Position numbers and translations under genes: made by a program. From Acidimicrobiaceae bacterium (GTDB lineage Bacteria > Actinomycetota > Acidimicrobiia > Acidimicrobiales > RAAP-2): 64,000 bases of DNA. The stretch is from positions 3,759 to 67,758 of the forward strand of contig PNAT01000179.1 in assembly GCA_003169675.1 (NCBI GenBank), given 5' to 3'. Each line of letters opens with the position of its first letter. Positions within the stretch are counted from its first letter, which is position 1. Below are positions 32,342 to 56,846 of the stretch, in pieces. Under the pieces are notes generated by a model. That model was not told the origin of the DNA and did no database searches. It saw only the letters and a list, made by a program, of their open reading frames with translations.

Positions 32342-32413
32342 TGCAGGTGACCAGGGTCGAACTGGCGCTACCGGAGTCAAGGTCCGGGGTGCTAACCGCT
32401 ACACCACACCTGC
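32342..32413 (-). tRNA. tRNA-like gene, anticodon UUG (Gln) if the loop is read canonically; position 33 is C
   Basis: A hand-folded 72-nt cloverleaf. Acceptor stem GCAGGTG/CACCTGC (7 perfect bp), D stem GTGT/GCAC, anticodon stem CCGGA/TCCGG with loop CCTTGAC, T arm GCCAG-TTCGACC-CTGGT, discriminator A. No encoded CCA. Confidence 0.6.
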
Positions 32414-40508: not shown

Positions 40509-40512
40509 ATCG

Positions 40513-42518: not shown

Positions 42519-42643
42519 TCCGATGACCGCGCACTCACCCGACACCCCTCGGGTCGCGGAACCCGAGCGTTCCGGTGCGCTCCAAATCGGACACCCACGC
42601 TCGGGTTTGAGCCCCGCAGGGCTTCGGAAATCCTGAACTCGAG

Positions 42644-43021: not shown

Positions 43022-43056
43022 CCAGGCCGGCTTCCGGCCCTGCGGGACAGCTCGGG

Positions 43057-43320
43057 TCACGGGGTCTGGATGTTGTTGGCGGTGTTGGTGAGCTTGGCGG
43101 TGACGATGCCGACGATGACGATGGCAGCGGCCACGACGAGGGCGGTGACCACCACCCACGAGGCGATCTCGCCACGTTCGTCGGCGGCGATGAGGGAGGA
43201 CCGGGCGGACAGATAGGCGCGTAGGAAGCTGAGAGTGGTCCTGACCGACTCGAAGGCCGAGCGCGCCAAGGTCTTGATCTTCTCTGTGTGGTCCTGGATG
43301 GTGACGTTGGGGGATGCCAT
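43057..43320 (-). CDS. Flp/Fap-type pilin-like protein with long leader
   Basis: 87 aa. DERGEIASWVVVTALVVAAAIVIVGIV resembles the G/xxxxE(Y/W) Flp processing region followed by a hydrophobic helix. It sits immediately 3' of tadC. Confidence 0.55.
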   Translation of the reverse strand: MASPNVTIQDHTEKIKTLARSAFESVRTTLSFLRAYLSARSSLIAADERGEIASWVVVTALVVAAAIVIVGIVTAKLTNTANNIQTP

Positions 43321-43382
43321 GGGATTCCTTTCGCTGTTGGGTGGTTGGGTTCAGATGTGGCTGGGTTCAGATATGGCGGCAA

Positions 43383-45116: not shown

Positions 45117-46411
45117 CGGCCGTACACCTGGAGGGGGGTCTCGTAGCCGAAGTCGGACAACCGGTCGCGCAGTCCCGGGGGCATGGAGAGGTGGTGCACG
45201 GCCGGACCACCCCCCTCGGGTTCGGCGAAGATCTCGGTCGAGATGACATGGGGGCCGTCGGAGTCCTCGACCACGCGCACCGAGGACACGTAGCGCCGCG
45301 CCAGACCCGAGGCGTCGGGCCGTTTGCGGACGAAGATCACCAGGTCCAGTGCCTGGGCGGTGAGCTGGGCTGCCGCGTTGTCGCTCAGGTGCTTGGGGGA
45401 CTGGGAAGCGTAGGTCTTGATCTTCCCGAACGTGCCTTCGGTCGAATCGGCGTGGATGGTGCACATGGAGCCGGCCTTGCCCGCCGTCATGGCGTTGAGC
45501 ATCGGGACGACCTCATCGCCCAGGACCTCGCCCACGATCACCCGGTCGGCGTCATGGCGGTTGGCCCGTTGCACCAGGTAGTCCATTAAGACCGCTCCTT
45601 GGCCTTCGGTGTTCGCCTCCCGGGTCTCCCAGGCCACGCAGTCGGGATGGCGATGGGGCAGCTCGTGGAGACCGAGCTCGTAAGACAGCTCAATGGTGAC
45701 GATCCGATCCGCAGGGTCCGCTTCGGCGGCCAGGGCACGCAACAAGGTGGTCTTGCCGGCATCGGTGCCGCCCGAGACGATCATGTTCAGCCGGGTCCGC
45801 ACGGCGGCGCGCAAGAAGCAGGCCAACTCGTCGGTCAGAGAATCGGCCAGGTCGTCGAGGGTGGGGTCGACGAGGCGGTGCCGTCGGATCGAGACGCACG
45901 GGCGGTTCGACACCTCGATCATGGCTGAGAGCCGGTGACCACCTGAGAGGTGGAGGTCGACGATGGGCTTGGCGCTGTCGATACGGCGCTCGCCGCCGGT
46001 GTGGTGCGCCCGGGCGGCCCGCTGGACCAGCTCGATCAGGTCCTCGTCGGTGTCCGCGATCGCCTCGACCCGCTCTTTGGTGCCGTCGGCGCGCTTGACC
46101 CACACGTGGTCGCAGCCGTTGATGTTGATGTTCTCGATGTCGTCCTCGTCCAGGAGAAGTTGGAGGCGGCCGAGTCCGAGCTGCGTGGCGACCAATCGGC
46201 GGACGATCTGCTCCTCCTCCTCGGCACTCGGCGTGGTCACACCCCCGTGGACCATGGAGCGGGCGGCTTCGTCGATGGCCTCGCGGGCGAGCTTCTCGAC
46301 AAAGGAGCGGCGCTCGCCTTCGCTCATGCCGGCAGTGCCGTAGTGGACGATCCCGTCAGCGACGTGCTCCGTCGCGTAACGCTCCAGCTCCCGGCGTTCG
46401 GCGTCGTTCAC
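45113..46411 (-). CDS. cpaF: CpaF/TadA secretion ATPase
   Basis: Walker A VSGGTDAGKTTLLRAL. RIVTIE, VIVGEVLGDE and MTAGKAGSMCTIHA are typical of CpaF/VirB11-type ATPases. GTGA overlap start at 46411. Confidence 0.9.
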   Translation of the reverse strand: MNDAERRELERYATEHVADGIVHYGTAGMSEGERRSFVEKLAREAIDEAARSMVHGGVTTPSAEEEEQIVRRLVATQLGLGRLQLLLDEDDIENININGCDHVWVKRADGTKERVEAIADTDEDLIELVQRAARAHHTGGERRIDSAKPIVDLHLSGGHRLSAMIEVSNRPCVSIRRHRLVDPTLDDLADSLTDELACFLRAAVRTRLNMIVSGGTDAGKTTLLRALAAEADPADRIVTIELSYELGLHELPHRHPDCVAWETREANTEGQGAVLMDYLVQRANRHDADRVIVGEVLGDEVVPMLNAMTAGKAGSMCTIHADSTEGTFGKIKTYASQSPKHLSDNAAAQLTAQALDLVIFVRKRPDASGLARRYVSSVRVVEDSDGPHVISTEIFAEPEGGGPAVHHLSMPPGLRDRLSDFGYETPLQVYGR

Positions 46412-47274
46412 CTTCGTGCCTCCCACTTCGATCCGGCTCCTACGGGCTCCGCCTCGTCTCGGGCCGGGTCCCACGACTGCGTCGGGGCTTCGACATTCGC
46501 TTGGAACAGCTCGACTTCCGGCTCCTCGGGGACCACAGTGGCGGTGGGGTCGACCGGAGCCATTTCCTCGATGCCCAGTGCCCCGACGAGTGCGCTGGCC
46601 CACCGCAGGAGCCGAGTGCGTTCGAGCCTCTTGACGCTGCGCTTGTTGGCCAGCGCGTCAGCAGCCTTGCGATCGTCGGGAATGGGCGGGCCGACGGCGA
46701 CCCCGAGGGTCTTGCCGATCTCCGCGCTCGAGTAGCCGACCGTTCCGGTGGGGATGACGAGGAGCTGGCGGCTACGCATCTCGGCCACCAGGCCGGGGAG
46801 GGCGGCTCGGAGGTGGACGATCGCTTCGAGCGTCGGTTCGCACAGGACGACCAGGGCGTCGGTGTGGTCGAGAACGTCGCGGATGCCACCTGCGAAGCCG
46901 GGAAGGAGCCGGCCGGCGTCGACGACCACGTCGGCGTCGAGGGCGCCGAGCGCCTCCGCGATGGTGGGCCAGGCCTTCTCGTTGGCCACGGCCCCCTGCA
47001 CGTTGGAGAGGCCGAACAGGACGGGAAGGCCACCAGGGAGTTGATCGACGTGGTCCCAGACGGCGTCAGGGTTCAGCGTGCGTCGGGCCGCGGCAAACAG
47101 GGAGACGAGACCGTTGGTGATGGTCGAGCCGTAACGGGGGGCCAGGTCGCCACCGAACGGGTCGGCTTCGACCAGGAGGACCCTGCGTCCCCTGGGCCAA
47201 CTCGCCGCGAGCGCGAGGGCCGCGGTCGTGACGCCCGGCGAACCCTTGATGGAGGCGAGAGCGATGACGGTCAC
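46408..47274 (-). CDS. ParA/MinD-like ATPase (TadZ/CpaE-like)
   Basis: VIALASIKGSPGVTTAALALA...VLLVEADPFGGDL is a deviant Walker A fold. Positioned between cpaB and cpaF. Confidence 0.7.
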   Translation of the reverse strand: MTVIALASIKGSPGVTTAALALAASWPRGRRVLLVEADPFGGDLAPRYGSTITNGLVSLFAAARRTLNPDAVWDHVDQLPGGLPVLFGLSNVQGAVANEKAWPTIAEALGALDADVVVDAGRLLPGFAGGIRDVLDHTDALVVLCEPTLEAIVHLRAALPGLVAEMRSRQLLVIPTGTVGYSSAEIGKTLGVAVGPPIPDDRKAADALANKRSVKRLERTRLLRWASALVGALGIEEMAPVDPTATVVPEEPEVELFQANVEAPTQSWDPARDEAEPVGAGSKWEARR

Positions 47275-47975
47275 TTTTGTCCTTCGCTCACGAGCGACAG
47301 ACCGATCTGGTCTGCCGCGGCATAAGAGGTCACGGTGGCTGCGTCGGCACTGGGGACTTCGAGCGAGACGGATGCCTCGTACTGGGTCTGGTTCGCCGGT
47401 GCGGGTCTCACCGCGAACACGGTGGCCGAGGCCACCAGGGTCGAGCCGATCGTTCCCCCGACCGTGGAGCCCTGGCCGGGCTGGGGAACCGCTATGACCT
47501 GGACCGTGTCACCGGCCACCAGCGGCACGGAAGGCATCTGGTCGCCCTTCATCAGCATGCCGACCACCTGTTCACCAGTGGCGAGCTGGGGCGTGGTCGA
47601 GAGCATCTGGCGGACCATCACCTGGCCGGCGTAGACCGGGGTGTCGAGCTGCTGGCCGACCAGGGCGCCCGACCCGGTGGCCGACATGGCCGTGATGTCC
47701 CCTGAGGCGGGGATGGTGGCAGTCGCCAGGTCACCGGGAACAAGGACGGTGCTGGCCGCCAGGTTCTTCGCCGCCACGACGATCGCCACCCGTTTCGCCG
47801 AGGACTGGAACACCGCTCCGGCCACCGCCGCACAGACGAGCACCAGCGCGATTCCGAGGCCGATCTGCCACGGTCGGCGTTGGTAGGTGCCGGTGGACAG
47901 GCGGAGTCCGCTCCGGTTCTCGACGACCGGCGGGGACGTGAAGACGGGCCGGGTGGGGGCGGTGGTTGTGGCCAT
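47271..47975 (-). CDS. cpaB: Flp pilus assembly protein CpaB/RcpC-like
   Basis: N-terminal TM segment WQIGLGIALVLVCAAVAGAVF, then a SAF-like segment. Position fits CpaB. Confidence 0.7.
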   Translation of the reverse strand: MATTTAPTRPVFTSPPVVENRSGLRLSTGTYQRRPWQIGLGIALVLVCAAVAGAVFQSSAKRVAIVVAAKNLAASTVLVPGDLATATIPASGDITAMSATGSGALVGQQLDTPVYAGQVMVRQMLSTTPQLATGEQVVGMLMKGDQMPSVPLVAGDTVQVIAVPQPGQGSTVGGTIGSTLVASATVFAVRPAPANQTQYEASVSLEVPSADAATVTSYAAADQIGLSLVSEGQK

Positions 47976-47990
47976 CGGATCTCCAGTTCT

Positions 47991-48917
47991 TTAGTTGTTC
48001 ACGGATTGGATCTGGGCGACTTTCAGCGAGGTCGTCCCCCGGGTGGTGAGGCTGGGTAGAGAGCCGGCCGACCCGGCCGGGCCAGACCAGGCGACCGTCC
48101 ACGTCACCGTGGCGATGATCGGAAAGGCCGCGTCGTTGGGGTTGCCGTCGGGAGTGGGCTGCCCTGCCGACGTCTTGGTGTAGGTGTGCGAGCAGTAGGT
48201 CGACTGCGCGTCAGCCGGAATCGCCGTGTTGTAGGCGGTGCCGGGACCGTTGCAGGTGACGGTCGTCCCGTCACCGGTGTTCCACGTCACGTACGCCGGG
48301 GAGGCGGTGGCCGATGCGGTCGTGCACCCGCCCGAGGTACAGGCCTGGGCGGTGGTGGTGAAGGGGTGCCAGATCGACGGATCGATCCACAGCCATTCGG
48401 CGAGGTTCACGTACCCGCTTTTCGACGGGCTCAGGACCAGCGATGGGCTGGAGAGTCGAAGTTCACTGGCCGCCTGCACGCCCACGACTGCCGGATCGGG
48501 CGGCGGAGTGCCAGGCACCTGGCCGGTGGCGAACCACTCGATCCCCGTCGCCATCCCTTGGGCACTCCCCTGGGCGCAGAGGTTCACGTACCAGGCTCCG
48601 GGCTGGGTTGCCCCGGCCGGGGGCCCACCCCCGTCTCCCCCCGGAAAGGCAACCGAAAAGGACACGAAATCGGGGCACTGAGGCTGCGTGATCCCACCAC
48701 CGCCGCTGGTCGAACCCCCGCCTCCAGCGTCCCCGCCGCCAGAGCCCGGCTGGCCGCCGGCACCGGCGCCGCATGTCACGGTTTGGCCCGAGTCGGTGCA
48801 GCCACCGGATCCGCCGCCAGTGCCTGTACCTGCGAAGGCAAACCCAGGTGTGGCTCCAATGGCCACTGACGTAAACGCCACTCCGCTCGCGATCTGGAAC
48901 AGAACCCTCCTCAGCAT
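47991..48917 (-). CDS. Secreted Gly-rich protein of the Tad locus
   Basis: Signal peptide MLRRVLFQIASGVAFTSVAIGATPGFAFA, then G-rich linkers and a T/S-rich domain. Confidence 0.55.
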   Translation of the reverse strand: MLRRVLFQIASGVAFTSVAIGATPGFAFAGTGTGGGSGGCTDSGQTVTCGAGAGGQPGSGGGDAGGGGSTSGGGGITQPQCPDFVSFSVAFPGGDGGGPPAGATQPGAWYVNLCAQGSAQGMATGIEWFATGQVPGTPPPDPAVVGVQAASELRLSSPSLVLSPSKSGYVNLAEWLWIDPSIWHPFTTTAQACTSGGCTTASATASPAYVTWNTGDGTTVTCNGPGTAYNTAIPADAQSTYCSHTYTKTSAGQPTPDGNPNDAAFPIIATVTWTVAWSGPAGSAGSLPSLTTRGTTSLKVAQIQSVNN

Positions 48918-49510
48918 TTCGGAACCGACGATGTCTTGAAGGTGCCGATCTTCCACGAACCATTTGCGAGCTGAAGATCCCAGGTGCCGCTGTAGGCACC
49001 AGCCCCTCCGCCATCGAGAGTGACCGGGCCGGGCTTACCGGAAGCGGTAGTTGTGCCCGTGTCATAAACGCAGCCCGTGACCGTCGCAGAAGAGGCACCC
49101 AGGACGGTGACCGTCGGATGGCCGAGGTTGTAGGTCGTCGGTCCAGTCAGCTGACCCATCTTCACCCCGACGAGGAACTCGTCCTCCGATTGGAGTGCCG
49201 GGTTGGTGAAGTAGTCGGCGAGCTTCGGCCAGAGGTTGGCACTGGTCTCACCGCCGACGAGGTCAGCTCGATCCTGCTGCCAAGACCCTTGCAGGTAGCC
49301 GTAGAGGGTTTGCTCGGCGGACTCCCAGGCGTTCAGGACGGCTGTTCGTGTTGCACTTGCTGGGCTCGATGTGGAGGTTGTGCCCGCCGATCCTGTGGTC
49401 CTGGTTACCGAGGTCGATGTGCTCGCGTTGGTAGCGGGGCCGGACGAGCACCCGGCCATGACGACGGCTATAGCCCCGGCAGCCAAGGCGACTGTTGATC
49501 TCTGCAACAT
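48911..49510 (-). CDS. Lipoprotein (first gene of the Tad operon)
   Basis: Trimmed to the ATG at 49510. The lipobox is in MLQRSTVALAAGAIAVVMAGCSS. Confidence 0.6.
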   Translation of the reverse strand: MLQRSTVALAAGAIAVVMAGCSSGPATNASTSTSVTRTTGSAGTTSTSSPASATRTAVLNAWESAEQTLYGYLQGSWQQDRADLVGGETSANLWPKLADYFTNPALQSEDEFLVGVKMGQLTGPTTYNLGHPTVTVLGASSATVTGCVYDTGTTTASGKPGPVTLDGGGAGAYSGTWDLQLANGSWKIGTFKTSSVPKC

Positions 49511-49637
49511 CGTCTTGGCCGGTGTCACCGTTGATGTCACCCTTCCTCTCCTCTCGTCGGCCGGCTCAGCCGATGGGTGCCCGATTGCGCGCTGGTCTGC
49601 CAAAGAAAGGTCGACCCAGAAGGGGATGATGCGCGAC

Positions 49638-49661
49638 GAATGTCACCCTGAACGTCACCCT
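49638..49661. repeat. Tandem iterons GAATGTCACCCT and GAACGTCACCCT upstream of the Tad operon
   Basis: Read directly. Same family as 13181-13204, in the same orientation relative to the downstream minus-strand gene. Confidence 0.9.
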
Positions 49662-49780
49662 CCGATGCCAGAGGGAGGATTCCTTGAAGATTTCTGCGGC
49701 CCGATGCGCCGTTGGGAACCACATCAGCACGCCGACGGCAGACCCGGTCCCGCACCGTTCTCGTGGAGAATCCGGGTTGG

Positions 49781-49808
49781 AGGGTGACGTCGCGCTGAAC
49801 GTCACCCT
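49781..49808. repeat. Inverted iteron pair AGGGTGACGT-CGCGCTGA-ACGTCACCCT
   Basis: Read directly; 10-bp arms. Confidence 0.85.
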
Positions 49809-49893
49809 CCCAGTTCAGTGGCACATTGTGATGACCCGGCGGTCGATTGTTCGCAACGAACGTGACCCGGTGCGAGGTTCTACAACTCGGCTC

Positions 49894-49905
49894 AGGGTGA
49901 CGTTC
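49894..49905. repeat. Single iteron AGGGTGACGTTC
   Basis: Read directly. Confidence 0.8.
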
Positions 49906-49961
49906 CTGGGAAGAATTCCACCTGCGGAACCGATACAAGGTGGTCGATTGCGGTAACGGCA

Positions 49962-50183
49962 CTACCCGGAGTCGTCGACGGCGCGCCGAAGAGCCTGTGC
50001 GATGAACTGGGTGATGCTCAACGCCCGGGCCTTGGCTGCCTCCCGAACGTCCTCGCGCAGAGTCCGTTCGAGCCAGAAGGTCACTCGAATGTGACGCTGG
50101 TCCCAGGATTCTTCCTCGGCGTCCGGACCGCGCCCACCCTCGGATCCACGACCGCTGGGCGGATGCCCTGTCGTGTTGGCCAT
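49962..50183 (-). CDS. Ribbon-helix-helix regulator flanked on both sides by the iteron clusters
   Basis: RHIRVTFWLERTLREDVREAAKARALSITQFIAQALRRAV fits a beta-alpha-alpha RHH layout. Confidence 0.65.
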   Translation of the reverse strand: MANTTGHPPSGRGSEGGRGPDAEEESWDQRHIRVTFWLERTLREDVREAAKARALSITQFIAQALRRAVDDSG

Positions 50184-50342
50184 AACCCCTCCCCGTTGTG
50201 TGACGTGCTGGTAGGTAGCTGGCTCCCCGCCTCGTCAGCCTCATGGTCGGCACCATAGCGCAATTGCATACGGTGTGCTGCTTACCGTGTGCAGTATTTC
50301 CAAACTGGCCCCTTGAGCTGCTGGTTCGACGTTCCCGGATCG

Positions 50343-50430
50343 AGGGTGACGATCCGGCGGCGAGGGTGACATCGACGTCCCGGAAAAGATTCAGGGGTGA
50401 CGTGCCGGGGTGACGTTCAGGGTGATGTCC
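50343..50430. repeat. Cluster of five same-orientation iterons (AGGGTGACGATC, AGGGTGACATCG, AGGGGTGACGTG, GGGGTGACGTTC, AGGGTGATGTCC)
   Basis: Read directly. It lies in the divergent region between the RHH gene and the small-ORF/xis operon, and the last unit ends 59 nt before the ATG at 50490. Confidence 0.85.
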
Positions 50431-50489
50431 ATCTGGACCATGGGAAGGGACCAGGACGCGTTGTCCTGGCGCCGAAGCAGGGAGGTCCG

Positions 50490-50645
50490 ATGCTCACGAA
50501 GCACAAGAGCGTTATGTCGTGGCTGTCACCTATCGACGAGGAGGTGACGGAGTTGTTCAGTAGGGCACCCTCAGCCGGTCGCCCGCGGGAGGCGGCTACC
50601 TACTTCTCTCCCGGCGATCCCGACTCGTCCGGGGGTGCAGCATGA
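50490..50645 (+). CDS. Small hypothetical protein translationally coupled to the excisionase-like gene
   Basis: A GGGAGG SD lies 5 nt before the ATG. ATGA overlap with the next gene. 51 aa, no motif recognised. Confidence 0.4.
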   Translation: MLTKHKSVMSWLSPIDEEVTELFSRAPSAGRPREAATYFSPGDPDSSGGAA

Positions 50646-50857
50646 CCATCGTCGCCAGCGCCGAACACGACCGGCTCGCCGCAGCAGATCTGATCTCGAT
50701 ACCCGATGCCGCCGGCCGGGTCGGCCTGCACGTCGACACGCTCTACCGGCTCTGCCGGACCGGCCAGTTCCCGCCGGCCATCCAGATCGGATCACGGTGG
50801 AGGGTGTCGGTACCGCGGCTGGAGCGCTACCTTCACGGTGACATCGCGGAGTTGTGA
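50642..50857 (+). CDS. xis: Excisionase-family helix-turn-helix DNA-binding protein
   Basis: LISIPDAAGRVGLHVDTLYRLCRTGQFPPAIQIGSRWRVSVPRLERYL is a typical MerR-like excisionase HTH. Confidence 0.75.
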   Translation: MTIVASAEHDRLAAADLISIPDAAGRVGLHVDTLYRLCRTGQFPPAIQIGSRWRVSVPRLERYLHGDIAEL

Positions 50858-51083
50858 CGTTCGTTTGCAGTGGCACGGATTCTGGCGATATCGGAAGGCA
50901 GCGGGCGACTGAGTCTCGTAGCTTCTGAGACACATCCCACCGCACTGTGGGACGTGCTCCAGGACTTGGGTCAATCGCGCGAACCCAGATCGCCCGTTTG
51001 ACCCGACGCGAACGTCGTTGACAGTTCCACCACGGCGTCCGACGATGCGTTAAGGGTGAGCAGTGGTGCTCTCAGCTCAGATC

Positions 51084-52277
51084 TCAGTCAATCGGAGGTG
51101 GAGAGGGAACGTCTTCTGGGTAGCTGAGAGCGAAATTCTTGATGCAGTCTGGCCCTTCGTGTTCACTTTCGATATTTGAGGGCTGGTAGCCCAGCTTGAA
51201 GAGGACTTCCTTGACCGGCTCGGTCTCAAGGTTGACGATGCAGAATCTTGCCGCTCCTAGGCCTTCGAGGTCGGGGGGCAAATTCTCCCGAAGAATGGAA
51301 GTGAAAACGAGGTCAGTTAGAGGTAGCGAATAGCCCATCAGAACTATCCGCCGAGGACGCTGTAGCGCTGAGGCCGCACGTTGCCATAGCTCTTTCGTAA
51401 CGGGGTTTCGGTAGTAGGCGGACTTTGTCGCCGTTGGAGGCACTATGAAGGGGACTCTCCCAGGCAATCGCCTCCGACGCTCATCTTCGTCCTGCTGCTC
51501 CCAGGAGCCGAATCCACCGGCGAGATTCCAAGTGTTGAGCGTTGCCCCCGTTAAATCGCCAGGACTCCAGTACCAGTTGAGGGAACCGTGAAGTTTCAGA
51601 AGCCTGAACGACTCAGTCAATGGACCGGCAAGGCGGCTCGGGTGTGGTGGAGGAGGAGGCAGGTCGCCGAGGATGTCATGGGGTCTCACCCTCTCTCCCT
51701 TCGGCGGGTGGTGGTCCATTAGCTCCGAACCGAGCACTGCGTATTCGATCAGATTGTCGTAGTTGAATGTAATGACCGTGTTTTTGCGGCGGTGAAACTC
51801 GGCCACCAACGTCGTGAGCCAAGGTGGGCACGGTCCTGAGCCCAGAGTCTCCTTCTGGCAACGGCTCAACGAGATGTGGATAACCGAACTGATGGTCTCG
51901 AACAGACCTCGGTTTGAGGCGTTCGTCGCATCGTCGTAGTCAGGCTGGTCCTCGGCCAGCCGCGAGAGCCACTGCTCGAAGTACCCACCCGCGAACCGCG
52001 ACTTCGGGAGCCAGTGTTCCCAGCCGCCTCCGACGAGCGCGAGCCTCAATGATTCTCCCAGGGGATCGGTCAAGGGCATCAGTTCGGAAACGGCGTGAGA
52101 GAACCCGGCTCCAAGTACGAACACGTCTGTGGCGACACGTACTTCAATAGTCGTGCTGCCTGGAGCGCCCGGAGGAGGCCGTCTCATCGAGGTTCGTCCA
52201 TTGTGAGGGCAACCTTCTTTGTTCAACTTGCAGAGGGCACGAACGAGATTTCGGAAATCCACCCCGCTCCGGAGCAT
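51084..52277 (-). CDS. SIR2-like (SIR2_2-type) NAD-binding/NADase-like protein
   Basis: VFVLGAGFS (Rossmann GAG), VITFNYDNLIEY (catalytic Asn box), LLKLHGSLNW (His box) and IVLMGYSLPLTDL. An alternative start is the ATG at 52187. Confidence 0.7.
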   Translation of the reverse strand: MLRSGVDFRNLVRALCKLNKEGCPHNGRTSMRRPPPGAPGSTTIEVRVATDVFVLGAGFSHAVSELMPLTDPLGESLRLALVGGGWEHWLPKSRFAGGYFEQWLSRLAEDQPDYDDATNASNRGLFETISSVIHISLSRCQKETLGSGPCPPWLTTLVAEFHRRKNTVITFNYDNLIEYAVLGSELMDHHPPKGERVRPHDILGDLPPPPPHPSRLAGPLTESFRLLKLHGSLNWYWSPGDLTGATLNTWNLAGGFGSWEQQDEDERRRRLPGRVPFIVPPTATKSAYYRNPVTKELWQRAASALQRPRRIVLMGYSLPLTDLVFTSILRENLPPDLEGLGAARFCIVNLETEPVKEVLFKLGYQPSNIESEHEGPDCIKNFALSYPEDVPSPPPID

Positions 52278-52292
52278 CGTAGAACGGTCGGG

Positions 52293-52502
52293 TCAGGTCC
52301 CAATCGTCCGAATGCCAATAATGGCGTAGGGCGGCAAGATTCCGAATTCGAGCGGCTTGGAAACCACGGCGAACTCAATCAGGAGACCGGCCGGCCCTTC
52401 GGCAACGGTGAATCCTTCTTCCGAGAAGCCGACGACCGATGGAGGTCCAGTGATTTCAAGGCTGACTCGGCGCTTCTCGAGCTTCGGCTTCTCGTCACTC
52501 AC
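52293..52502 (-). CDS. Small hypothetical protein (69 aa) between the PIN and SIR2 genes
   Basis: GTGA overlap with the PIN gene stop. It ends 15 nt before the SIR2 ATG. No motif recognised. Confidence 0.4.
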   Translation of the reverse strand: MSDEKPKLEKRRVSLEITGPPSVVGFSEEGFTVAEGPAGLLIEFAVVSKPLEFGILPPYAIIGIRTIGT

Positions 52503-52987
52503 GGTTTGGACTGCTCGGCCAATGCATCGTCGAAGCTCACGACATGGGGAAGATTCGGCCTGCCTATCGCCAGCGGTGGATTACCCATCTCCCCGCTTCG
52601 CTTGATCAGCTCCTTGTCGAACGTATCCATGCGATCAATACCCTCAATCAAGGCCGTGGCAACGTGGACAGAATCTTTTGGGGCGAACCCGTACTTCCAA
52701 ATCAGGAGTCTTGCTTGCTCTGCAATCCGCCGATCCAATTGACGCACGACAATCCACTCGTGCTTGAAGAAATCCACGACCATTTGCTGGCTGGATTCGG
52801 GGATCTCGCGACCAGGCCCAAGCTTGATTACTTCGACCAACGTTATCGAGGAAGTCACCAGCTTGACCCGACCGCCTTCGGCTCCCTTGATGACAGTCCG
52901 GCACTCCTCGAATTTGTCCGGTTCCTTCTTGAGCCACCCAAGGAACACATCCGAATCCACGTAGCGGTTCGGAGGGGTATTCGCCAC
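52499..52987 (-). CDS. PIN-domain nuclease-like protein
   Basis: YVDSDVFLGWL (first Asp), SSITLVEV (Glu), PKDSVHVATAL (Asp) and a C-terminal DTFD. The GTG start abuts the upstream stop. Confidence 0.65.
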   Translation of the reverse strand: MANTPPNRYVDSDVFLGWLKKEPDKFEECRTVIKGAEGGRVKLVTSSITLVEVIKLGPGREIPESSQQMVVDFFKHEWIVVRQLDRRIAEQARLLIWKYGFAPKDSVHVATALIEGIDRMDTFDKELIKRSGEMGNPPLAIGRPNLPHVVSFDDALAEQSKP

Positions 52988-53743
52988 CTATCCCTCCAAG
53001 ATCCCAAGCACGTCGTCCGCACTCGGCAGATCGGCTTCTTCGGGGAAGGCGTCGATACTGCGAGCAAGAACATTAACAATCGAACCGTCGTCGCGATATC
53101 GGATCTCACCGTGAACGACGACGCGCTTTTTGGCAAGTCTGCCAACTTCCCCAGGGGGGATTCGATTGCCGAACTCGCATCGGATCTGTCCCCCGGTGAT
53201 TGGATCGTAGATGTTGAAGATCCGATTGGTTCCGTGTACGTTCAGACGCTCTAGAAACCCCTCCACGGAACCAATCGCCGAAAAGGTGCTGCCGAGTACC
53301 TCATTGACGTTCGCCACGACATGTTCGTCCAGCCGCGTCAGGTCCACGGAAAGCACGCCTTCAAGCTTTCGAACGCGCGCCACTATGTCACGTGCCCTTT
53401 CCAGCGCAGTGTCCGTAAAGTATGGGGGGCGCACGGCCTGGTTCTGTATGAGCTTGAGGCCACTAGAAGCCACGCCCGACAGATCCTCAAGATTGGGAAC
53501 AGAGATGCTTTCGGATCGGGAGATTGGCCGGGACATTAGCTGGAGTGGGCTCGACATTGAAATGCTCTCCACCCGCCACTGGACGCGCGCCTCAGGGAGA
53601 AAGTCCTGCTGTATCTCCTTCAAGAGGGCAGCAATATCTCTGGCAAGCTCCCCCAGCCTGTTGAGCGTTATTTCGGGGATATCCAGAGTGAAGTGAACAT
53701 CGTTGCCGACAACTTCCTCCGTCAGCTCCAAATCCTCACTCAT
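52988..53743 (-). CDS. Hypothetical protein (251 aa), partner gene upstream of PIN
   Basis: Starts at the ATG at 53743 (MSEDLELTEE...); an alternative TTG is at 53830. No motif recognised. The C-terminal part looks beta-rich. Confidence 0.5.
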   Translation of the reverse strand: MSEDLELTEEVVGNDVHFTLDIPEITLNRLGELARDIAALLKEIQQDFLPEARVQWRVESISMSSPLQLMSRPISRSESISVPNLEDLSGVASSGLKLIQNQAVRPPYFTDTALERARDIVARVRKLEGVLSVDLTRLDEHVVANVNEVLGSTFSAIGSVEGFLERLNVHGTNRIFNIYDPITGGQIRCEFGNRIPPGEVGRLAKKRVVVHGEIRYRDDGSIVNVLARSIDAFPEEADLPSADDVLGILEG

Positions 53744-53813
53744 GCTGGTTACACCCCCTGTCGTGAGTCCGAGTACATCAAGCGCCTTTCGGCAAATTGT
53801 CCCACAAGGGTGT

Positions 53814-54191
53814 TCATGCGCGCCCCTCAAGCCTGCGTCGAGCTGCCTGCGTCAGACCGTAGCGACCCTGGCCGAAGCTCCGCACCCAACCCCGAAGGCG
53901 ATGCGGGCACTCCGGACTGTTGGTGGCGAGCACGCGTACCTGGCGGTATGTCGTCCCGGGGTGGTCGCCGGTGCGCTTGATGATTTCGGCTCCGGACAGG
54001 CTGAGGTCGGGGAGGTTGTCGATCAATGCTCGCACGATGTGGTCGGTGACGACGTCGCGGGTCGGACCCTCGCCCACGCCATGATCCGGCTCCGTCTTTT
54101 GATTCTCGATGTGCTCGGTATCGGCTATGAGGAGGGTCACCTTGGTCAGGCCGGGACCGACTTCTTCGCTTCGGGTTTCCAGTACTTGCAT
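53814..54191 (-). CDS. Small putative winged-helix DNA-binding protein, first gene of the SIR2/PIN operon
   Basis: AAGGAG SD before the ATG. LSGAEIIKRTGDHPGTTYRQVRVLAT looks wHTH-like. Weak evidence. Confidence 0.45.
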   Translation of the reverse strand: MQVLETRSEEVGPGLTKVTLLIADTEHIENQKTEPDHGVGEGPTRDVVTDHIVRALIDNLPDLSLSGAEIIKRTGDHPGTTYRQVRVLATNSPECPHRLRGWVRSFGQGRYGLTQAARRRLEGRA

Positions 54192-54568
54192 TCTTCCCTC
54201 TCCTTCGGGTCAGATCTACCTAGAAGATTCTACCGGAAGTTTTAGTGAAGATCAAGCGATGGCACACCCGGCCCCGCCACGTCGGAAGATCCACCCGATC
54301 AGCCACGACCGCTCGAAGAAGTTCGGCGCCCTCTCGACGCCGGCAGGCCCCGCATCCGCAAAGTCAACCTGGACAGGGTGAGCGCTGAGTCCGTCTTGCC
54401 GTCTACAACTTGCCCCACACATCGCGCCGTCTGCTGTCGCCCAGTGTCTTCGCCTATCCACCACGTCCCTGGTCAGGCCGTAGCGTTCCGTCTGATCCGG
54501 CCCCATCTTGCTCTTCGGATCGGATTATCGGATCCCAGTTCCGACTGGCAGGATCGCTGCAGCAGCAT

Positions 54569-55747
54569 CTATCGCGCGAACACACGGCCAAGCACACTTG
54601 CCGCTGCCCGGTCGCGCTCGGGGAGGGCATGGGCGTAGCGGTTGAGCGTCATCGTGGCCTGAGCGTGTCCGTGGCGTTCCGCGACCGTGCGGATATCGAC
54701 GCCATCGGCAATAAGAGTGGTGACCGAGAAGTGGCGGAGGTCGTGCAGGTGGAACGGGTACCGTTCGGCGTCGGAGAGGGTTCGGCTGTCTTTTCCGGCA
54801 GACTTCTCGGCCTCCGTTTCGAGCTTGACGCAGAGCGACTTGAACCGGTGCGTCAGGGTGTCCGGTCCTACTGGTCGACCTCCATGGGCGTCGAACGAGA
54901 GAATGTACGGATTGGCTGCAAGCGGTGATCCCGCGCGTTCGGACAGTTCCTGCATGTAGTCCCACCTCCGCCGCAGCACGCTGACGCCGACATCGTCGAG
55001 CGAAACGTCCCTACCCTGGTGGGTCTTGGTCGGACCCTCGTGACCCTTCCCCTCGACGATCGTGAGCGATCGGGAGAACCGGATGCGGCCTTGGACCAAA
55101 TCTACGTCAGACCACCGGAGCGCGCAGAGCTCGCCCCGTCGGCATCCGGTAAGTGCTGCCAGTGCCAGAGCGGTCGCGAGGACGGGGTCGTCGGCCTCGG
55201 CGGAGCGCACGAGCTTGGCGACCTGCTCGGGCGTCGGGACCTTCATCTCCGGGGACCTGGGTTTCGGAGCGGTGGCCTGGTCCGTCGGGGCGCGGTCGAC
55301 CCACCCCCACTTGACCGCCTGACGGCACGCCGCGTGGAGAATCGAGTGGTAGACGGCGACGCTCGAAGAGGAAAGGCCCTCGGCGAGCCAGCGTTGGTAC
55401 GCGGCGTCGATGGCGTCGGCTCGGAGCTTGTCGAGACGGATGTCGCCGAGCACGGGACGAATCCGCCCTTCGATCTTCCGCTTGTACTCGTAGACCGTCT
55501 TCGGCCGGGCCTTGCCGATTGCCTCGACATGTGCAACCCACCGGTCGAGCAGTTCCCCAACTGTCGCTCGGTTCGGATCGACGACACGACTCTCGACCGC
55601 GGTCACCAGCTTCGCCAGCTCCTTGCGGGCGGCCGGCTCGGTGCCCCGGACCGTCCGGCTCTCTTGGATCGGCGTGTCGGTGTCGGGGTCCCGGCCCGCG
55701 TACACTCTCAGGCGCCATGTTCCTGACCCCTTCGGCCTCTCCGTCAT
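54569..55747 (-). CDS. int: Tyrosine integrase (phage-integrase family)
   Basis: GSGTWRLRVYAG N-terminal arm-binding type, LALAALTGCRRGELCALRWSDVD (Arg), HDLRHFSVT (HxxR) and HGHAQATMTLNRYAH (His...Tyr). An alternative start is at 55768. Its 5' end faces tRNA-Ile. Confidence 0.9.
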   Translation of the reverse strand: MTERPKGSGTWRLRVYAGRDPDTDTPIQESRTVRGTEPAARKELAKLVTAVESRVVDPNRATVGELLDRWVAHVEAIGKARPKTVYEYKRKIEGRIRPVLGDIRLDKLRADAIDAAYQRWLAEGLSSSSVAVYHSILHAACRQAVKWGWVDRAPTDQATAPKPRSPEMKVPTPEQVAKLVRSAEADDPVLATALALAALTGCRRGELCALRWSDVDLVQGRIRFSRSLTIVEGKGHEGPTKTHQGRDVSLDDVGVSVLRRRWDYMQELSERAGSPLAANPYILSFDAHGGRPVGPDTLTHRFKSLCVKLETEAEKSAGKDSRTLSDAERYPFHLHDLRHFSVTTLIADGVDIRTVAERHGHAQATMTLNRYAHALPERDRAAASVLGRVFAR

Positions 55748-55841
55748 CGTCCCTGCTCCACGTGCCATGTGGAGCAACGATAGCCGGAGTTGTAGTCCAG
55801 AAGTAGTCCAAAAGGGTCGGGGCAGACACATAACACCAGTA

Positions 55842-55915
55842 GGGGCTATAGCTCAGTCGGTTAGAGCGCAGCACTGATAATGCTGAGGTCGCAAGTTCGA
55901 TTCTTGCTAGCCCCA
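55842..55915 (+). tRNA. tRNA-Ile (anticodon GAT)
   Basis: GGGGCTATAGCTCAGTCGGTTAGAGCGCAGCACTGATAATGCTGAGGTCGCAAGTTCGATTCTTGCTAGCCCCA forms a canonical cloverleaf with anticodon loop CTGATAA. No encoded CCA. Confidence 0.9.
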
Positions 55916-55985
55916 CGCCGCGGATGTCGCCAAACATCTCGTGCGTCCGCCACGGCTCGCCGCCACGCACCCAAGGAGGTTCCAT

Positions 55986-56846
55986 ATGCTCCAGCGCCAG
56001 ATCGGTGAACGCAAAGTGAGTGCCATCGGGTTAGGGGAGATGCCCCTCTCCATTGAAGGGCGCCCCAGCCGGACGCAGTCCATCTCCACCATCCACGCCT
56101 CACTCGATGCAGGTGTCACCATCATCGACACCGCCGACGCCTACGCCCTCAGCGTGGAGGAGCACGGCCATGGGGAACGCATCGTGGCCAAGGCGCTTGC
56201 CACCTACGGTGGCCCCACCGATCACGTACTGGTCGCCACCAAGGGTGGGCACCGCCGGCCCGGCGACGGCAGCTGGACCGTGCACGGGGACCCCGCGTAC
56301 ATCAAGGCGGCCTGCGAGGCGTCACTCACGGCGCTCGGCGTCGAGGCCATCGGCCTGTACCAGTACCACCGGCCGGATCCCGAGGTCCCTTGGGCGGAGT
56401 CGGTCGGCGCCCTGGCCGAGTTGCTCGATGCCGGCAAGATCGAGATGGCCGGCGTCTCCAACGCCACGGTGGATCAGATCGACGAGGCCCAGCGCGTCCT
56501 TGGCGGGCGCCTGGTCAGCGTGCAGAACGAGTTCTCCCCCCGTTTCCGCTCGTCGGCCGGTGAGCTGGCCCACTGCGAGAAGATCGGGGTGGCCTTCATT
56601 CCATGGAGCCCCCTGGGCGGCATCAGGCGGTCGGGGAGCATCCAGACGGACTACCCCGCCTTCTCCGAGGTGGCCGAGGAGGTGGGGGCGACCGCCCAAC
56701 AGGTCACCCTGGCCTGGATGCTGGCCCAGGGATCCCGGGTCATCCCCATCCCCGGGAGCAGCCGGCCCGAGACAGCCGTCGCCTCAGCTGCGGCGGCCGA
56801 CATTACGCTCAATGCCGAGCAGGTGGCGCGCCTCGACGCCGCGTGA
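55986..56846 (+). CDS. Aldo/keto reductase
   Basis: AAGGAGG SD precedes the ATG. IDTADAYA...GERIVAKAL and the overall AKR pattern (LYQYHRPD, GVSN). Confidence 0.8.
   Translation: MLQRQIGERKVSAIGLGEMPLSIEGRPSRTQSISTIHASLDAGVTIIDTADAYALSVEEHGHGERIVAKALATYGGPTDHVLVATKGGHRRPGDGSWTVHGDPAYIKAACEASLTALGVEAIGLYQYHRPDPEVPWAESVGALAELLDAGKIEMAGVSNATVDQIDEAQRVLGGRLVSVQNEFSPRFRSSAGELAHCEKIGVAFIPWSPLGGIRRSGSIQTDYPAFSEVAEEVGATAQQVTLAWMLAQGSRVIPIPGSSRPETAVASAAAADITLNAEQVARLDAA

What the first reader, a model, noticed from the sequence alone, without database searches (positions are those of the whole stretch)
51084..54191. Compact five-gene operon wHTH, unknown(251 aa), PIN, 69-aa ORF, SIR2-like: candidate undescribed defence system
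Five minus-strand genes are present. The last four are joined stop-to-start (TAG|GTG), by a GTGA overlap, and by a 15-nt gap; the wHTH gene precedes them by about 70 nt, or overlaps if the alternative start is used. The block appears lower in GC than its surroundings by eye. The last gene has the SIR2_2-type boxes GAGFS, FNYDNLIE and KLHGS that are catalytic in ThsA/DSR-type NADases, but it is only about 370-400 aa with no SLOG, HerA, Ago or helicase partner nearby. Its partners are a PIN-domain nuclease and two proteins with no motif I recognise. The operon sits directly next to the ICE integrase, a typical cargo hot spot. I cannot match the gene set to a named SIR2 system (Thoeris, DSR1/2, SIR2-HerA, SPARSA).
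Basis: partly seen in the sequence, partly recalled or inferred. Interest (0 to 1): 0.7.

Follow-up and report, generated by a model that had tools for sequence, protein, structure and literature searches.

The report
Mosaic island cargo: PIN pair plus SIR2
The five neighbouring genes are real, but they are not one new defence system: they are a patchwork of independent modules (a toxin-antitoxin-like PIN nuclease pair with a previously undescribed partner protein, and a stand-alone SIR2 enzyme) loaded into the cargo slot of a small integrating genomic island.

Summary
The ORFs, their junctions, the SIR2 and PIN motifs and the low GC content are all confirmed.

- **PIN pair.** The 251-aa gene and the PIN gene form a tightly coupled pair in 18 of 19 foreign loci (Actinomycetota, Dehalococcoidia, Acidobacteriota), never with SIR2.
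- **SIR2.** Relatives occur in 17 foreign loci, never with the pair.
- **Sister locus.** L041 has the same tRNA-Ile, then the integrase, then directly a 94%-identical SIR2. It lacks the 2.3-kb block holding the 125-aa gene, the 251-aa gene, PIN and the 69-aa ORF.
- **125-aa gene.** With its promoter it is an element backbone module. Elsewhere it heads other cargo, for example DISARM genes.
- **69-aa ORF.** It has no homologue outside this element.
- **SIR2 fold.** The AF2 model has pLDDT 91. Its best matches are the SIR2 subunits of SIR2-HerA, and the catalytic Asn and His are invariant. No HerA, SLOG, Ago or sensor domain is present.
- **251-aa protein.** It is acidic and has no Pfam match. 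It has a C-terminal OB fold and a conserved tail, and represents about 1,900 clusters (at 50% identity).

Most likely this is a defence and addiction cargo mosaic. The two modules are each uncharacterised variants of known kinds.

The parts
55842..55916 (+). tRNA-Ile (GAT), flanking the island on the integrase side
   Evidence: ARAGORN and Rfam tRNA at 78.8 bits. It is 100% identical in the sister locus L041. No att direct repeat was found.
54569..55831 (-). Tyrosine recombinase (integrase) of the island
   Evidence: Pfam Phage_integrase 7.6e-21 and Phage_int_SAM_3 8.7e-8. Database gene calls use a 392-aa start.
54227..54255 (-). Promoter-like site (TTGATC-17-TAGAAT) upstream of the 125-aa gene. 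It is the only such site positioned ahead of the five genes.
   Evidence: Consensus scan. It lies inside the DNA block 54256-53824, which is conserved at 83-87% with L025, L026 and L027. Function is inferred.
53814..54191 (-). 125-aa protein: element backbone gene that heads a variable cargo slot. The wHTH call is unverified.
   Evidence: 17 homologues, none with a Pfam domain. In L025, L026 and L027 it is followed by different cargo: DISARM DrmA/DrmE-like genes, NERD, and a PDC-M06B-like gene. GC3 is 0.75, like the integrase (0.77) and unlike the cargo (0.65-0.67). It is absent from sister locus L041.
52988..53743 (-). 251-aa acidic partner of the PIN gene (putative antitoxin or sensor). It has an N-terminal alpha/beta domain of unknown fold, a C-terminal OB fold (about residues 150-235) and a conserved tail LPSADDVLGILEG.
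   Evidence: - AF2 pLDDT is 80.9.
- Foldseek against PDB matches only OB folds: LysRS/AspRS anticodon-binding domains, SSB, RPA and STN1 (E about 1e-3, prob 1.0).
- Sub-threshold tRNA_anti-codon Pfam hits occur in 6 of 63 family members.
- The profile search finds 1,908 cluster representatives at E<=1e-3.
- pI is 4.8.
- The tail residues L239, P240, G247 and I248 are at least 90% conserved across 63 diverse members.
52499..52987 (-). PIN-domain (VapC-type) nuclease, 162 aa, with an intact acidic active site
   Evidence: Pfam PIN 1.8e-11. E52, D105 and D124 are invariant, and D11 is conserved (Glu in one sequence), in an alignment with 7 distant pair-associated PINs. It always lies immediately downstream of the 251-aa homologue.
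52293..52502 (-). 69-aa ORF, orphan. It marks the 3' end of the 2.3-kb block that is absent from the sister locus.
   Evidence: Its GTG start overlaps the PIN stop as GTGA. GC1/2/3 of 0.61/0.46/0.67 is coding-like. No family hit. No homologue in any foreign locus. The database cluster has one member.
51084..52187 (-). Stand-alone short-form SIR2_2-type protein (367 aa; a longer ORF runs to 52277), predicted NAD+-consuming effector
   Evidence: - PADLOC generic SIR2 1.1e-8 and Pfam SIR2_2 1.9e-4, below the Pfam cut-off.
- AF2 pLDDT 90.8, pTM 0.90.
- Foldseek top hits are the SIR2 of SIR2-HerA (8wld, 8yhx, 8w9l, 8sxx; best E 1.2e-7), then SPARSA SIR2, Sir2Tm, DSR2, Avs5, KomC and ThsA.
- N142, Y143, D144 and H200 are invariant.
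- DNA homology to L003 spans 52183-51093, essentially this ORF alone.
52288..54587 (-). 2.3-kb block (125-aa gene, 251-aa gene, PIN, orf69) present here but absent from the sister island L041
   Evidence: blastn of the window against L041: homology covers the tRNA, the integrase (to 54588), then resumes at 52287. The junction was read.
50642..50857 (+). Excisionase-like HTH_17/AlpA-type gene of the island
   Evidence: Pfam HTH_17 4.6e-10 and Phage_AlpA 2e-3.
49536..50430 (.). Cluster of RGGGTGACR / GTCACCCT repeats around a 73-aa RHH-like gene (49962-50183, minus strand). Probably protein-binding sites at the far end of the island.
   Evidence: The exact 8-mer occurs 16 times in the window against 3.1 expected, 8 of them here. 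Repeats D2, D5 and D6. Sequence read. The CopG_antitoxin hit is only E=0.033. Role is inferred.

Best explanation
The region is the cargo slot of a small integrative island of about 6 kb next to tRNA-Ile. The island has an integrase at one end and an excisionase-like gene at the other. The organism is probably an Acidimicrobiales-type actinobacterium.

The five genes are a recent mosaic of independent units.

1. **Backbone module.** The promoter plus the 125-aa gene heads whatever cargo the element carries.
2. **PIN pair.** This is a self-contained two-gene, toxin-antitoxin-like module. The 162-aa VapC-type PIN nuclease has a complete acidic active site. It is translationally coupled to an upstream 251-aa acidic protein with a C-terminal OB fold and a conserved, flexible C-terminal tail.
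   - Inferred mechanism: the partner binds PIN, probably through the tail, and keeps it inactive.
   - Loss or sequestration of the partner would free the nuclease to cut RNA and stop growth. Possible triggers are proteolysis, loss of the element, or a phage cue engaging the OB domain.
   - The outcome would be element addiction and/or abortive infection.
3. **orf69.** An orphan 69-aa ORF of doubtful significance.
4. **SIR2.** A stand-alone short SIR2_2-family enzyme that most likely consumes NAD+ when activated, as defence sirtuins do. Its trigger is unknown, because it lacks the C-terminal extension of its 450-480-aa relatives and any partner.

Shown: gene existence, domain and fold assignments, independence of the modules, and mobile context.
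Inferred: co-transcription from the 125-aa gene's promoter, toxin/antitoxin roles, NADase activity and any defence phenotype.
For: **Independence of the modules**
- Co-occurrence matrix over 40 fetched loci, plus L041.
- The 251-aa gene and PIN occur together in 18 of 19 foreign loci: L001, L002, L008-L011, L013-L019 and L028-L032.
- SIR2 relatives occur in 17 foreign loci (L003-L007, L022-L024, L033-L041) and never with the pair.
- The 125-aa gene occurs in 3 foreign loci, each with other cargo.
- Sister locus L041 has the identical tRNA-Ile, the integrase, then directly the 94%-identical SIR2. It lacks window 52288-54587.
- DNA homology breakpoints coincide with gene boundaries.

**Pair coupling**
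- In all pair loci the stop and start are adjacent or overlap by 1-11 nt.
- The pair sits among housekeeping genes in Dehalococcoidia (UvrA, Ffh, CobD) and beside a transposase and a methyltransferase in L001, L002 and L029. This is typical of autonomous toxin-antitoxin cassettes.
- PIN catalytic residues are conserved.
- The partner is acidic (pI 4.8) and has an OB fold and a conserved low-confidence tail.

**SIR2**
- The fold is confirmed and the catalytic Asn and His are invariant.
- Relatives sit in defence neighbourhoods: next to CBASS II, HsdR and AbiEi in L003; after a Multi_ubiq/E1/BubE operon in L004-L007; next to another SIR2_2 operon in L022.
- Elsewhere they stand alone (L023).

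**Backbone and cargo slot**
- The 125-aa gene and its promoter are 83-87% identical in DNA to three other elements, and the similarity then breaks off.
- DISARM genes follow it in L025.
- Its GC3 matches the integrase, not the cargo.
- Only one promoter-like site lies ahead of the five genes, and no terminator-like site was found on that strand.
Against: - No experiment or complex prediction supports PIN toxicity, neutralisation by the 251-aa protein, or NADase activity.
- The partner has no recognisable DNA-binding autoregulatory domain and is larger than its 'toxin', unlike classical VapB.
- Four Dehalococcoidia MAGs share synteny around the pair. This also fits a vertically inherited housekeeping function.
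- The genes are same-strand and tightly packed without a detected terminator. Co-expression, and some functional cooperation in this particular element, cannot be excluded.
- The locus sample is modest (about 40 loci). It was selected with peptide patterns and by database look-ups of homologues.
Confidence: 0.82

Rival explanations
1. One reading: all five genes form one undescribed SIR2-based defence system. The PIN nuclease and the two unknown proteins would act as obligatory partners (sensor/regulator) of the SIR2 effector.
For: - The genes are same-strand and tightly packed.
- There is one promoter-like site upstream and no terminator-like site on that strand.
- GC is uniformly low across the four cargo genes.
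- The short SIR2 lacks any sensor domain of its own, so it might need partners.
Against: - The gene set is found only in copies of this same element (L020, L021).
- The pair and SIR2 never co-occur in about 36 foreign loci.
- L041 carries the 94%-identical SIR2 in the same island without the other four genes.
- L003 has an 83%-identical SIR2 with no PIN or orf69 upstream.
- The 125-aa gene heads unrelated cargo elsewhere.
Confidence: 0.04
2. The 251-aa/PIN pair is not a toxin-antitoxin or defence module. It would be a two-subunit housekeeping RNA-processing enzyme, with a PIN RNase catalytic subunit and an OB-fold RNA/tRNA-binding subunit, that happens to be carried here.
For: - The OB fold resembles tRNA anticodon-binding domains.
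- The family is very large, and almost all members are about 250 aa.
- The pair is syntenic between UvrA and Ffh in four Dehalococcoidia MAGs.
- Fused PIN+TRAM/OB architectures exist in bacteria (own knowledge).
Against: - Here the pair lies on a low-GC mobile island and is absent from the sister genome L041.
- In L001/L002 it lies beside a transposase and a methyltransferase, and the PIN gene is frameshifted there, so it is dispensable.
- The OB domain is neutral (pI 6.9) and the whole protein is strongly acidic, which is not what is expected of an RNA-binding subunit.
- The partner-then-PIN order with stop/start overlap is the canonical antitoxin-toxin layout.
Confidence: 0.13
3. The SIR2 gene is a protein deacylase or ADP-ribosyltransferase with a regulatory or metabolic role, not an NAD+-depleting immune effector.
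For: - Foldseek also matches classical sirtuin deacetylases: Sir2Tm, SIRT5 and SIRT6.
- No sensor domain or partner is present.
Against: - The best structural matches are defence SIR2 proteins: SIR2-HerA, SPARSA, DSR2, Avs5 and ThsA.
- The sequence matches the SIR2_2 family and PADLOC defence SIR2 models.
- The gene lies on mobile islands and next to CBASS, R-M, Abi and ubiquitin-like systems.
Confidence: 0.1

Closest known systems
VapBC-type type II toxin-antitoxin modules (PIN toxin, PF01850)
   Same: - PIN domain with the four acidic active-site residues.
- The partner gene lies immediately upstream, with its stop adjacent to or overlapping the PIN start.
- The partner is acidic.
- The cassette is autonomous and found both in chromosomes and on mobile islands.
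   Different: - The partner is 251 aa, larger than the toxin.
- It has no RHH, AbrB, PHD or HTH DNA-binding domain and no Pfam, NCBIfam or PADLOC match.
- It carries an OB fold plus an unknown N-terminal domain.
- Neither toxicity nor neutralisation has been tested.
SIR2 subunit of the SIR2-HerA anti-phage system (PDB 8wld, 8yhx, 8w9l, 8sxx)
   Same: - Best structural match (Foldseek E 1e-7, prob 1.0, TM about 0.5).
- Similar size, with no extra domains beyond SIR2.
- Catalytic NYD and HGS boxes align.
   Different: - No HerA gene in the island or in any relative's locus.
- Sequence identity is only about 14-16%.
- The NCBIfam SIR2_antiphage equivalog scores 10 bits against a cut-off of 500.
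Defence-associated sirtuins DSR1/DSR2 and ThsA (Thoeris)
   Same: SIR2 fold and the presumed NAD+-hydrolysing chemistry. DSR proteins are also single-gene systems.
   Different: - DSR proteins carry roughly 600-700 aa sensor domains.
- ThsA carries a SLOG domain and needs the TIR protein ThsB.
- This protein is SIR2 only, and its long-form relatives add only about 110-130 aa.
Cargo hot spots of integrative elements and satellites (int-proximal variable defence loci, as in P2/P4-like elements and actinomycete integrative elements)
   Same: A conserved backbone (integrase, 125-aa gene with promoter, excisionase) brackets a slot whose content differs between related elements: PIN pair plus SIR2, SIR2 alone, DISARM, or a NERD protein.
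   Different: - No replication or conjugation genes in this copy. RepSA is seen only in relative L026.
- att sites were not identified.
- The integrase lies on the 5' side of the tRNA gene.

Membership tests
SIR2 superfamily / SIR2_2-like defence sirtuins | Rossmann-type SIR2 fold | tested here: met
   AF2 pLDDT 90.8 and pTM 0.90. The top 20 Foldseek PDB hits are all SIR2 proteins at prob 1.0.
SIR2 superfamily / SIR2_2-like defence sirtuins | Catalytic Asn (NYD box), His (HGS box) and Gly-rich NAD loop (GAGxS) | tested here: met
   N142, Y143, D144, H200, G201 and S202 are invariant in 37 homologues. LGAGFS is present in every homologue whose N-terminus is complete. The boxes align to PDB 8yhx SIR2.
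SIR2 superfamily / SIR2_2-like defence sirtuins | Pfam SIR2_2 (PF13289) above the gathering score | tested here: not met
   22.0 bits against a cut-off of 24.5 for the window protein. Several homologues do carry precomputed PF13289 hits.
SIR2 superfamily / SIR2_2-like defence sirtuins | NAD+ hydrolysis activity | not testable with these tools
   Needs a biochemical assay.
Thoeris (ThsA/ThsB) | SLOG domain fused to SIR2, and an adjacent TIR-domain ThsB gene | tested here: not met
   All 367 aa are accounted for by the SIR2 fold. No SLOG or TIR hit in the five proteins. The only TIR_2 gene in the window (34204-35160) lies 16 kb away in another island.
SIR2-HerA | Adjacent HerA-type ATPase gene | tested here: not met
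   No HerA or ATPase hit among the island genes or in the annotated SIR2 relatives' loci.
DSR1/DSR2 | Single large protein (about 1,000 aa) with SIR2 plus a C-terminal sensor domain | tested here: not met
   Protein length is 367 aa and long-form relatives are 450-480 aa. No DSR-named PADLOC model matched.
SPARSA (short pAgo + SIR2-APAZ) | APAZ domain and an adjacent short Argonaute | tested here: not met
   No Ago or APAZ hit. Relatives give only a weak Aga_SIR2 model hit at E 1.6e-4.
VapBC type II toxin-antitoxin | PIN toxin with conserved acidic active site | tested here: met
   Pfam PIN 1.8e-11. D11, E52, D105 and D124 are conserved.
VapBC type II toxin-antitoxin | Two-gene operon with the antitoxin upstream, tightly coupled, conserved as a pair | tested here: met
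   18 of 19 foreign loci keep the pair with an adjacent or overlapping stop and start.
VapBC type II toxin-antitoxin | Small antitoxin with an N-terminal DNA-binding domain (RHH/AbrB/PHD/HTH) | tested here: not met
   The partner is 251 aa with no such Pfam hit in it or in 63 relatives. The model shows an alpha/beta domain plus an OB fold.
VapBC type II toxin-antitoxin | Toxicity of PIN and neutralisation by direct binding of the partner | not testable with these tools
   Needs expression and rescue assays, or at least a complex prediction.
Integrative and conjugative element (ICE/AICE) | Conjugation (FtsK/Tra or T4SS) and replication (RepSA) genes within the integrated element | tested here: not met
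   The genes between tRNA-Ile and the Tad pilus locus are the integrase, the five genes, HTH_17 and small ORFs only. RepSA is seen only in the related element L026.
Named defence systems in PADLOC-DB v2 | Significant match of the components to a named system's models | tested here: not met
   Only generic 'SIR2' models match, at 32 bits for the window protein and up to 41 bits for relatives. The 125-aa, 251-aa, PIN and 69-aa proteins have no hit at E<=1.

The most novel reading that the evidence does not exclude
The 251-aa OB-fold protein plus PIN pair is a widespread, so far undescribed two-gene immune or addiction system. It represents about 1,900 clusters at 50% identity and spans at least Actinomycetota, Chloroflexota and Acidobacteriota. 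In this reading the OB-fold partner is both inhibitor and sensor. Binding of a phage nucleic acid or protein to the OB or N-terminal domain would release the conserved C-terminal tail from the PIN active site and unleash RNA cleavage. Separately, the short SIR2-only clade would be a self-sufficient single-gene NADase defence with no sensor domain.
Probability: 0.2. Interest if true: 0.6.

Novelty: new variant of a known kind. Interest (0 to 1): 0.35.

Why it matters
- **It prevents a false call.** Tight same-strand packing next to an integrase is not evidence of a single system. Here one sister genome and about 40 related loci were enough to split the 'operon' into modules.
- **The PIN partner is a lead.** It represents about 1,900 clusters, has no Pfam, NCBIfam, PADLOC or PDB counterpart, and is almost always coupled to a VapC-type nuclease. 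Characterising it would add a new antitoxin or sensor architecture (an OB fold plus a conserved tail) to the toxin-antitoxin and defence repertoire.
- **The SIR2 clade is a lead.** It has more than 600 detectable relatives, in short and long forms. It recurs in defence islands without any known partner. It therefore bears on how a minimal SIR2 is kept off and switched on.
- **The island is a natural model.** Together with its sister it shows how a defence cargo slot is built up step by step.

Tried and rejected
- **att sites.** I searched for direct repeats of tRNA-Ile or its flanks in 40000-54600. Nothing exceeded 11 nt, so the island ends remain undefined. A 17-nt imperfect repeat (50971-50987 and 54568-54584) brackets the cargo but is absent from L041. 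I treat it as probably chance.
- **wHTH claim for the 125-aa protein.** No hit in Pfam, NCBIfam, PHROGs or PADLOC. A PDB profile search from 18 homologues gave only marginal, irrelevant hits. The claim is neither confirmed nor refuted.
- **PDB sequence searches for SIR2, PIN and the 251-aa protein.** Only noise, except weak STN1 OB hits. A SIR2 profile gave a marginal hit (E 0.015) to a solved SIR2 at the catalytic boxes.
- **DUF6575 lead.** The BFVD fold search gave three long phage-protein matches (E 3e-8 to 1e-6, TM 0.36-0.38), one of them named DUF6575. DUF6575 is listed among new defence domains in PMC9519451. However, none of 63 family members matches Pfam DUF6575 even at E<=1, and no PADLOC PD-system model matches. 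I keep it only as a lead.
- **Other searches with no useful result.**
  - The 251-aa protein has no hit in the plasmid collection.
  - The pair has no relatives in viral contigs.
  - Rfam finds only the tRNA in 49000-56200.
  - Literature searches for a PIN plus OB-fold antitoxin, or for a single-gene short SIR2, found nothing matching.
  - The diverse alignment A3 was too divergent for the metagenome scan.
- **orf69 as a conserved small gene upstream of SIR2.** The small ORFs upstream of SIR2 in L007 and L022 are unrelated to it.

Full report
**1. Observation**

All five minus-strand ORFs exist as described:

| Gene | Coordinates | Length |
|---|---|---|
| 125-aa gene | 53814-54191 | 125 aa |
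| 251-aa gene | 52988-53743 | 251 aa (a TTG-extended form runs to 53830) |
| PIN | 52499-52987 | 162 aa |
| orf69 | 52293-52502 | 69 aa |
| SIR2-like gene | 51084-52277 | 397 aa as the longest ORF |

- The junctions read from the sequence are as stated. TAG is followed directly by GTG between the 251-aa gene and PIN. PIN and orf69 share a GTGA overlap. A 70-nt gap precedes the 251-aa ATG.
- GC is 0.55-0.59 across 50750-54250, against 0.68-0.72 in the flanks.
- PIN matches Pfam PF01850 at 1.8e-11.
- The last gene carries VLGAGFS, FNYDNLIE and KLHGS. It matches Pfam SIR2_2 only below the curated cut-off (22 bits against 24.5) and PADLOC generic SIR2 models at 1e-8.
- The 125-aa, 251-aa and 69-aa proteins have no significant match in Pfam, NCBIfam, PHROGs or PADLOC.

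Two details need correction.
- The ATG at 52277 is not conserved. It is ACG in the sister locus, and homology to other loci starts at the ATG at 52187. SIR2 is therefore probably 367 aa, and the gap after orf69 is about 105 nt rather than 15.
- The element is not demonstrably an ICE.

**2. Context**

- The genes lie between tRNA-Ile (55842-55916) with a tyrosine integrase (54569-55831) on one side and an HTH_17/AlpA-like excisionase gene (50642-50857) on the other.
- Beyond the excisionase gene come a 73-aa RHH-like gene, a cluster of GTCACCCT-type repeats and then a Tad pilus locus.
- No replication or conjugation gene is present in this stretch of about 6 kb.
- One promoter-like site (TTGATC-17-TAGAAT, 54255-54227) precedes the 125-aa gene. 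No terminator-like site was found on that strand. Co-transcription of the five genes is therefore plausible but inferred.
- A database relative of the 125-aa protein is labelled as from an Acidimicrobiales MAG.

**3. The genes do not travel together**

I collected 41 related loci through database look-ups and pattern scans. I then scored all five proteins against them with tblastn.

*The 251-aa/PIN pair*
- The two genes are together in 18 of 19 foreign loci.
- These comprise close actinobacterial-type relatives (L001, L002 and L028-L032; 42-62% identity for the partner and 55-78% for PIN) and distant ones in Dehalococcoidia and an Acidobacteriota MAG (L008-L019; 24-39% and 30-35%).
- The stop and start are always adjacent or overlap by 1-11 nt.
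- None of these loci has SIR2, orf69 or the 125-aa gene.
- In Dehalococcoidia the pair sits between housekeeping genes such as UvrA, an enolase-family gene, Ffh, CobD and acetyl-CoA synthetase.
- In L001, L002 and L029 it is followed by an N6_N4 methyltransferase. In L001 and L002 it also lies beside a transposase.

*SIR2*
- Relatives occur in 17 foreign loci and never with the pair.
- L003 (83% identity) sits beside a type II CBASS operon, an HsdR-like helicase and AbiEi. Its 586 nt upstream hold no PIN or orf69.
- L004-L007 (55%) lie downstream of a Multi_ubiq/E1/BubE operon.
- L022 (54%) lies beside another SIR2_2 operon.
- L023 (45%, long form) stands alone near an IS element.

*Sister locus L041, the most decisive comparison*
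- It has the identical tRNA-Ile and a decayed integrase.
- Immediately after the integrase stop codon comes the SIR2 cassette (92% DNA identity, 94% protein identity).
- The rest of the island follows at 81% DNA identity.
- The 2.3-kb block at window 52288-54587, holding the 125-aa gene, the 251-aa gene, PIN and orf69, is simply absent.

*The 125-aa gene*
- With its promoter it is 83-87% identical in DNA to three other elements, and the similarity stops at its stop codon.
- Downstream of it lie DISARM-like DrmA/DrmE genes (L025), a 162-aa gene plus a NERD protein with HTH_17 and RepSA further on (L026), or a PDC-M06B-like gene (L027).
- Its GC3 (0.75) matches the integrase (0.77), not the cargo (0.65-0.67).
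- It is therefore a backbone gene heading a variable cargo slot.

*orf69*
- It has no homologue outside copies of this element.

**4. The PIN pair**

- PIN keeps the four acidic residues. E52, D105 and D124 are invariant, and D11 is conserved with one Glu substitution, across distant pair-associated PINs.
- The partner is strongly acidic (pI 4.8, net charge -14).
- Its AF2 model (pLDDT 80.9) shows three parts:
  - an N-terminal alpha/beta domain (about residues 10-150) with no PDB match;
  - a C-terminal five-stranded barrel that Foldseek assigns to OB folds, namely LysRS/AspRS anticodon-binding domains, SSB, RPA, STN1 and CcmE (E about 1e-3, prob 1.0);
  - a low-confidence terminal helix.
- Six of 63 family members give sub-threshold Pfam tRNA_anti-codon hits, which fits the OB assignment.
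- The terminal motif LP.A.DV.GIL is at least 90% conserved across those 63 members. A conserved but poorly ordered tail is what is expected of a segment that folds on a partner. I infer that it docks on PIN, as VapB tails do. This step is not shown.
- An exhaustive profile search found 1,908 cluster representatives (at 50% identity) at E<=1e-3 and 752 at E<=1e-10, almost all about 250 aa. None of the members tested has a Pfam domain, and none has a PDB relative by sequence.
- A BFVD search gave three long matches to phage proteins, one annotated DUF6575. DUF6575 is mentioned as a new defence domain in PMC9519451. No sequence-level DUF6575 or PD-system match exists, so this stays a lead.

Best reading: a VapBC-like, autonomous toxin-antitoxin or abortive-infection cassette with a new kind of partner. 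The rival reading, a housekeeping two-subunit RNase, is kept at about 0.13. Arguments against it:
- the pair lies on a mobile island;
- it is absent from the sister genome;
- its PIN gene is frameshifted in L001 and L002;
- its OB domain is not basic.

**5. The SIR2 gene**

- The AF2 model is confident (pLDDT 90.8, pTM 0.90).
- The top Foldseek hits, in order, are the SIR2 subunits of SIR2-HerA complexes (8wld, 8yhx, 8w9l, 8sxx; best E 1.2e-7), SPARSA SIR2, Sir2Tm, SIRT5, DSR2, Avs5, KomC, ThsA and FAM118B.
- N142, Y143, D144 and H200 are invariant in 37 homologues. They align with the catalytic boxes of a solved SIR2.
- The family has at least 611 detectable relatives. Most are 450-480 aa, with a C-terminal extension of about 110-130 aa that this protein and its closest relatives lack.
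- Only generic PADLOC SIR2 models match, at 41 bits or less. The NCBIfam SIR2_antiphage equivalog scores 10 bits against a cut-off of 500.
- No HerA, SLOG, TIR, Ago/APAZ or large sensor domain is present.
- It is therefore a member of the defence-type SIR2 fold class, but not of Thoeris, DSR, SIR2-HerA or SPARSA.
- By analogy with those systems (established knowledge) I infer NAD+ consumption on activation. Its trigger is unknown.

**6. Verdict**

- The single-system interpretation is not supported.
- What is there is a mosaic cargo region of a small integrative island carrying two independent conflict modules, each an uncharacterised variant of a known kind, plus a backbone gene and an orphan ORF.
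- Interest is moderate-low for the finding as stated. The OB-partner/PIN family and the partner-less short SIR2 clade are reasonable follow-up targets.

Noticed in passing
window 49536-50430 (also 10789-16005): There is a dense cluster of RGGGTGACR / GTCACCCT motifs around the 73-aa RHH-like gene and upstream of the excisionase gene. The exact 8-mer occurs 16 times in the window against 3.1 expected. The cluster includes tandem copies 12 nt apart and an inverted pair. A second group of the same 8-mer, again with a 12-nt tandem pair at 13185/13197, lies at 10.8-16 kb. These are probably binding sites of an element-encoded protein.
   Followed up: partly
window ~15000-36000: This is a second, larger low-GC block (0.53-0.63) with tRNA-Gln at 32341-32413. 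It holds a BREX-like set: a BrxL_N/BrxL_ATPase protein fused to a protein kinase (16367-18829), a PglX-like MmeI_Mtase (21141-24359) and a DUF6079 BrxC-like protein (24375-27842). It also holds an ArdC-N protein and a TIR_2 protein (34204-35160). It is a separate defence island, divided from the finding by host genes.
   Followed up: partly
window 54569-55916: The integrase lies on the 5' side of tRNA-Ile and is divergently oriented, rather than downstream of the tRNA 3' end as is usual. No att-type direct repeat of the tRNA was found within 15 kb.
   Followed up: partly
L001 9242-10615, L002 2830-3555, L029 3297-4772: In three loci with close relatives of the pair, the PIN gene is followed by an N6_N4 DNA methyltransferase gene whose start overlaps it. 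In L001 and L002 the PIN gene itself is frameshifted. This may be a three-gene variant or a methyltransferase hitch-hiker.
   Followed up: no
L004-L007 5822-9080: A 55%-identical short SIR2 lies directly downstream of a Multi_ubiq / E1 (DUF6791+ThiF) / BubE operon, itself preceded by an SMC/Rad50-like ATPase. The SIR2 might act there as an effector of a ubiquitin-like conjugation defence system.
   Followed up: no
L022 2479-6403: The contig holding a 54%-identical SIR2 also has a separate four-gene operon (80 aa, 656 aa, 251 aa, and a 314-aa protein matching Pfam SIR2_2). That 251-aa protein is unrelated to the window's 251-aa protein by tblastn.
   Followed up: partly
L025 8821-14076: Downstream of the 125-aa homologue, a related element carries DISARM-like genes: a faint DrmE_C match and DrmA split into two ORFs (PADLOC DrmA 2e-32). 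This illustrates the variable cargo slot.
   Followed up: partly
window 50971-50987 and 54568-54584: A 17-nt imperfect direct repeat, TC(A/T)ATCGCGCGAAC(C/A)CA, brackets the whole cargo block from just after the integrase stop to just after SIR2. It is absent from sister locus L041, so it may be chance.
   Followed up: partly
L011 6001-7126: In the Acidobacteriota MAG locus the 251-aa query matches two successive stretches (6001-6273 and 6650-7126) ahead of the PIN gene. This suggests a tandem duplication or a fragmented partner gene.
   Followed up: no
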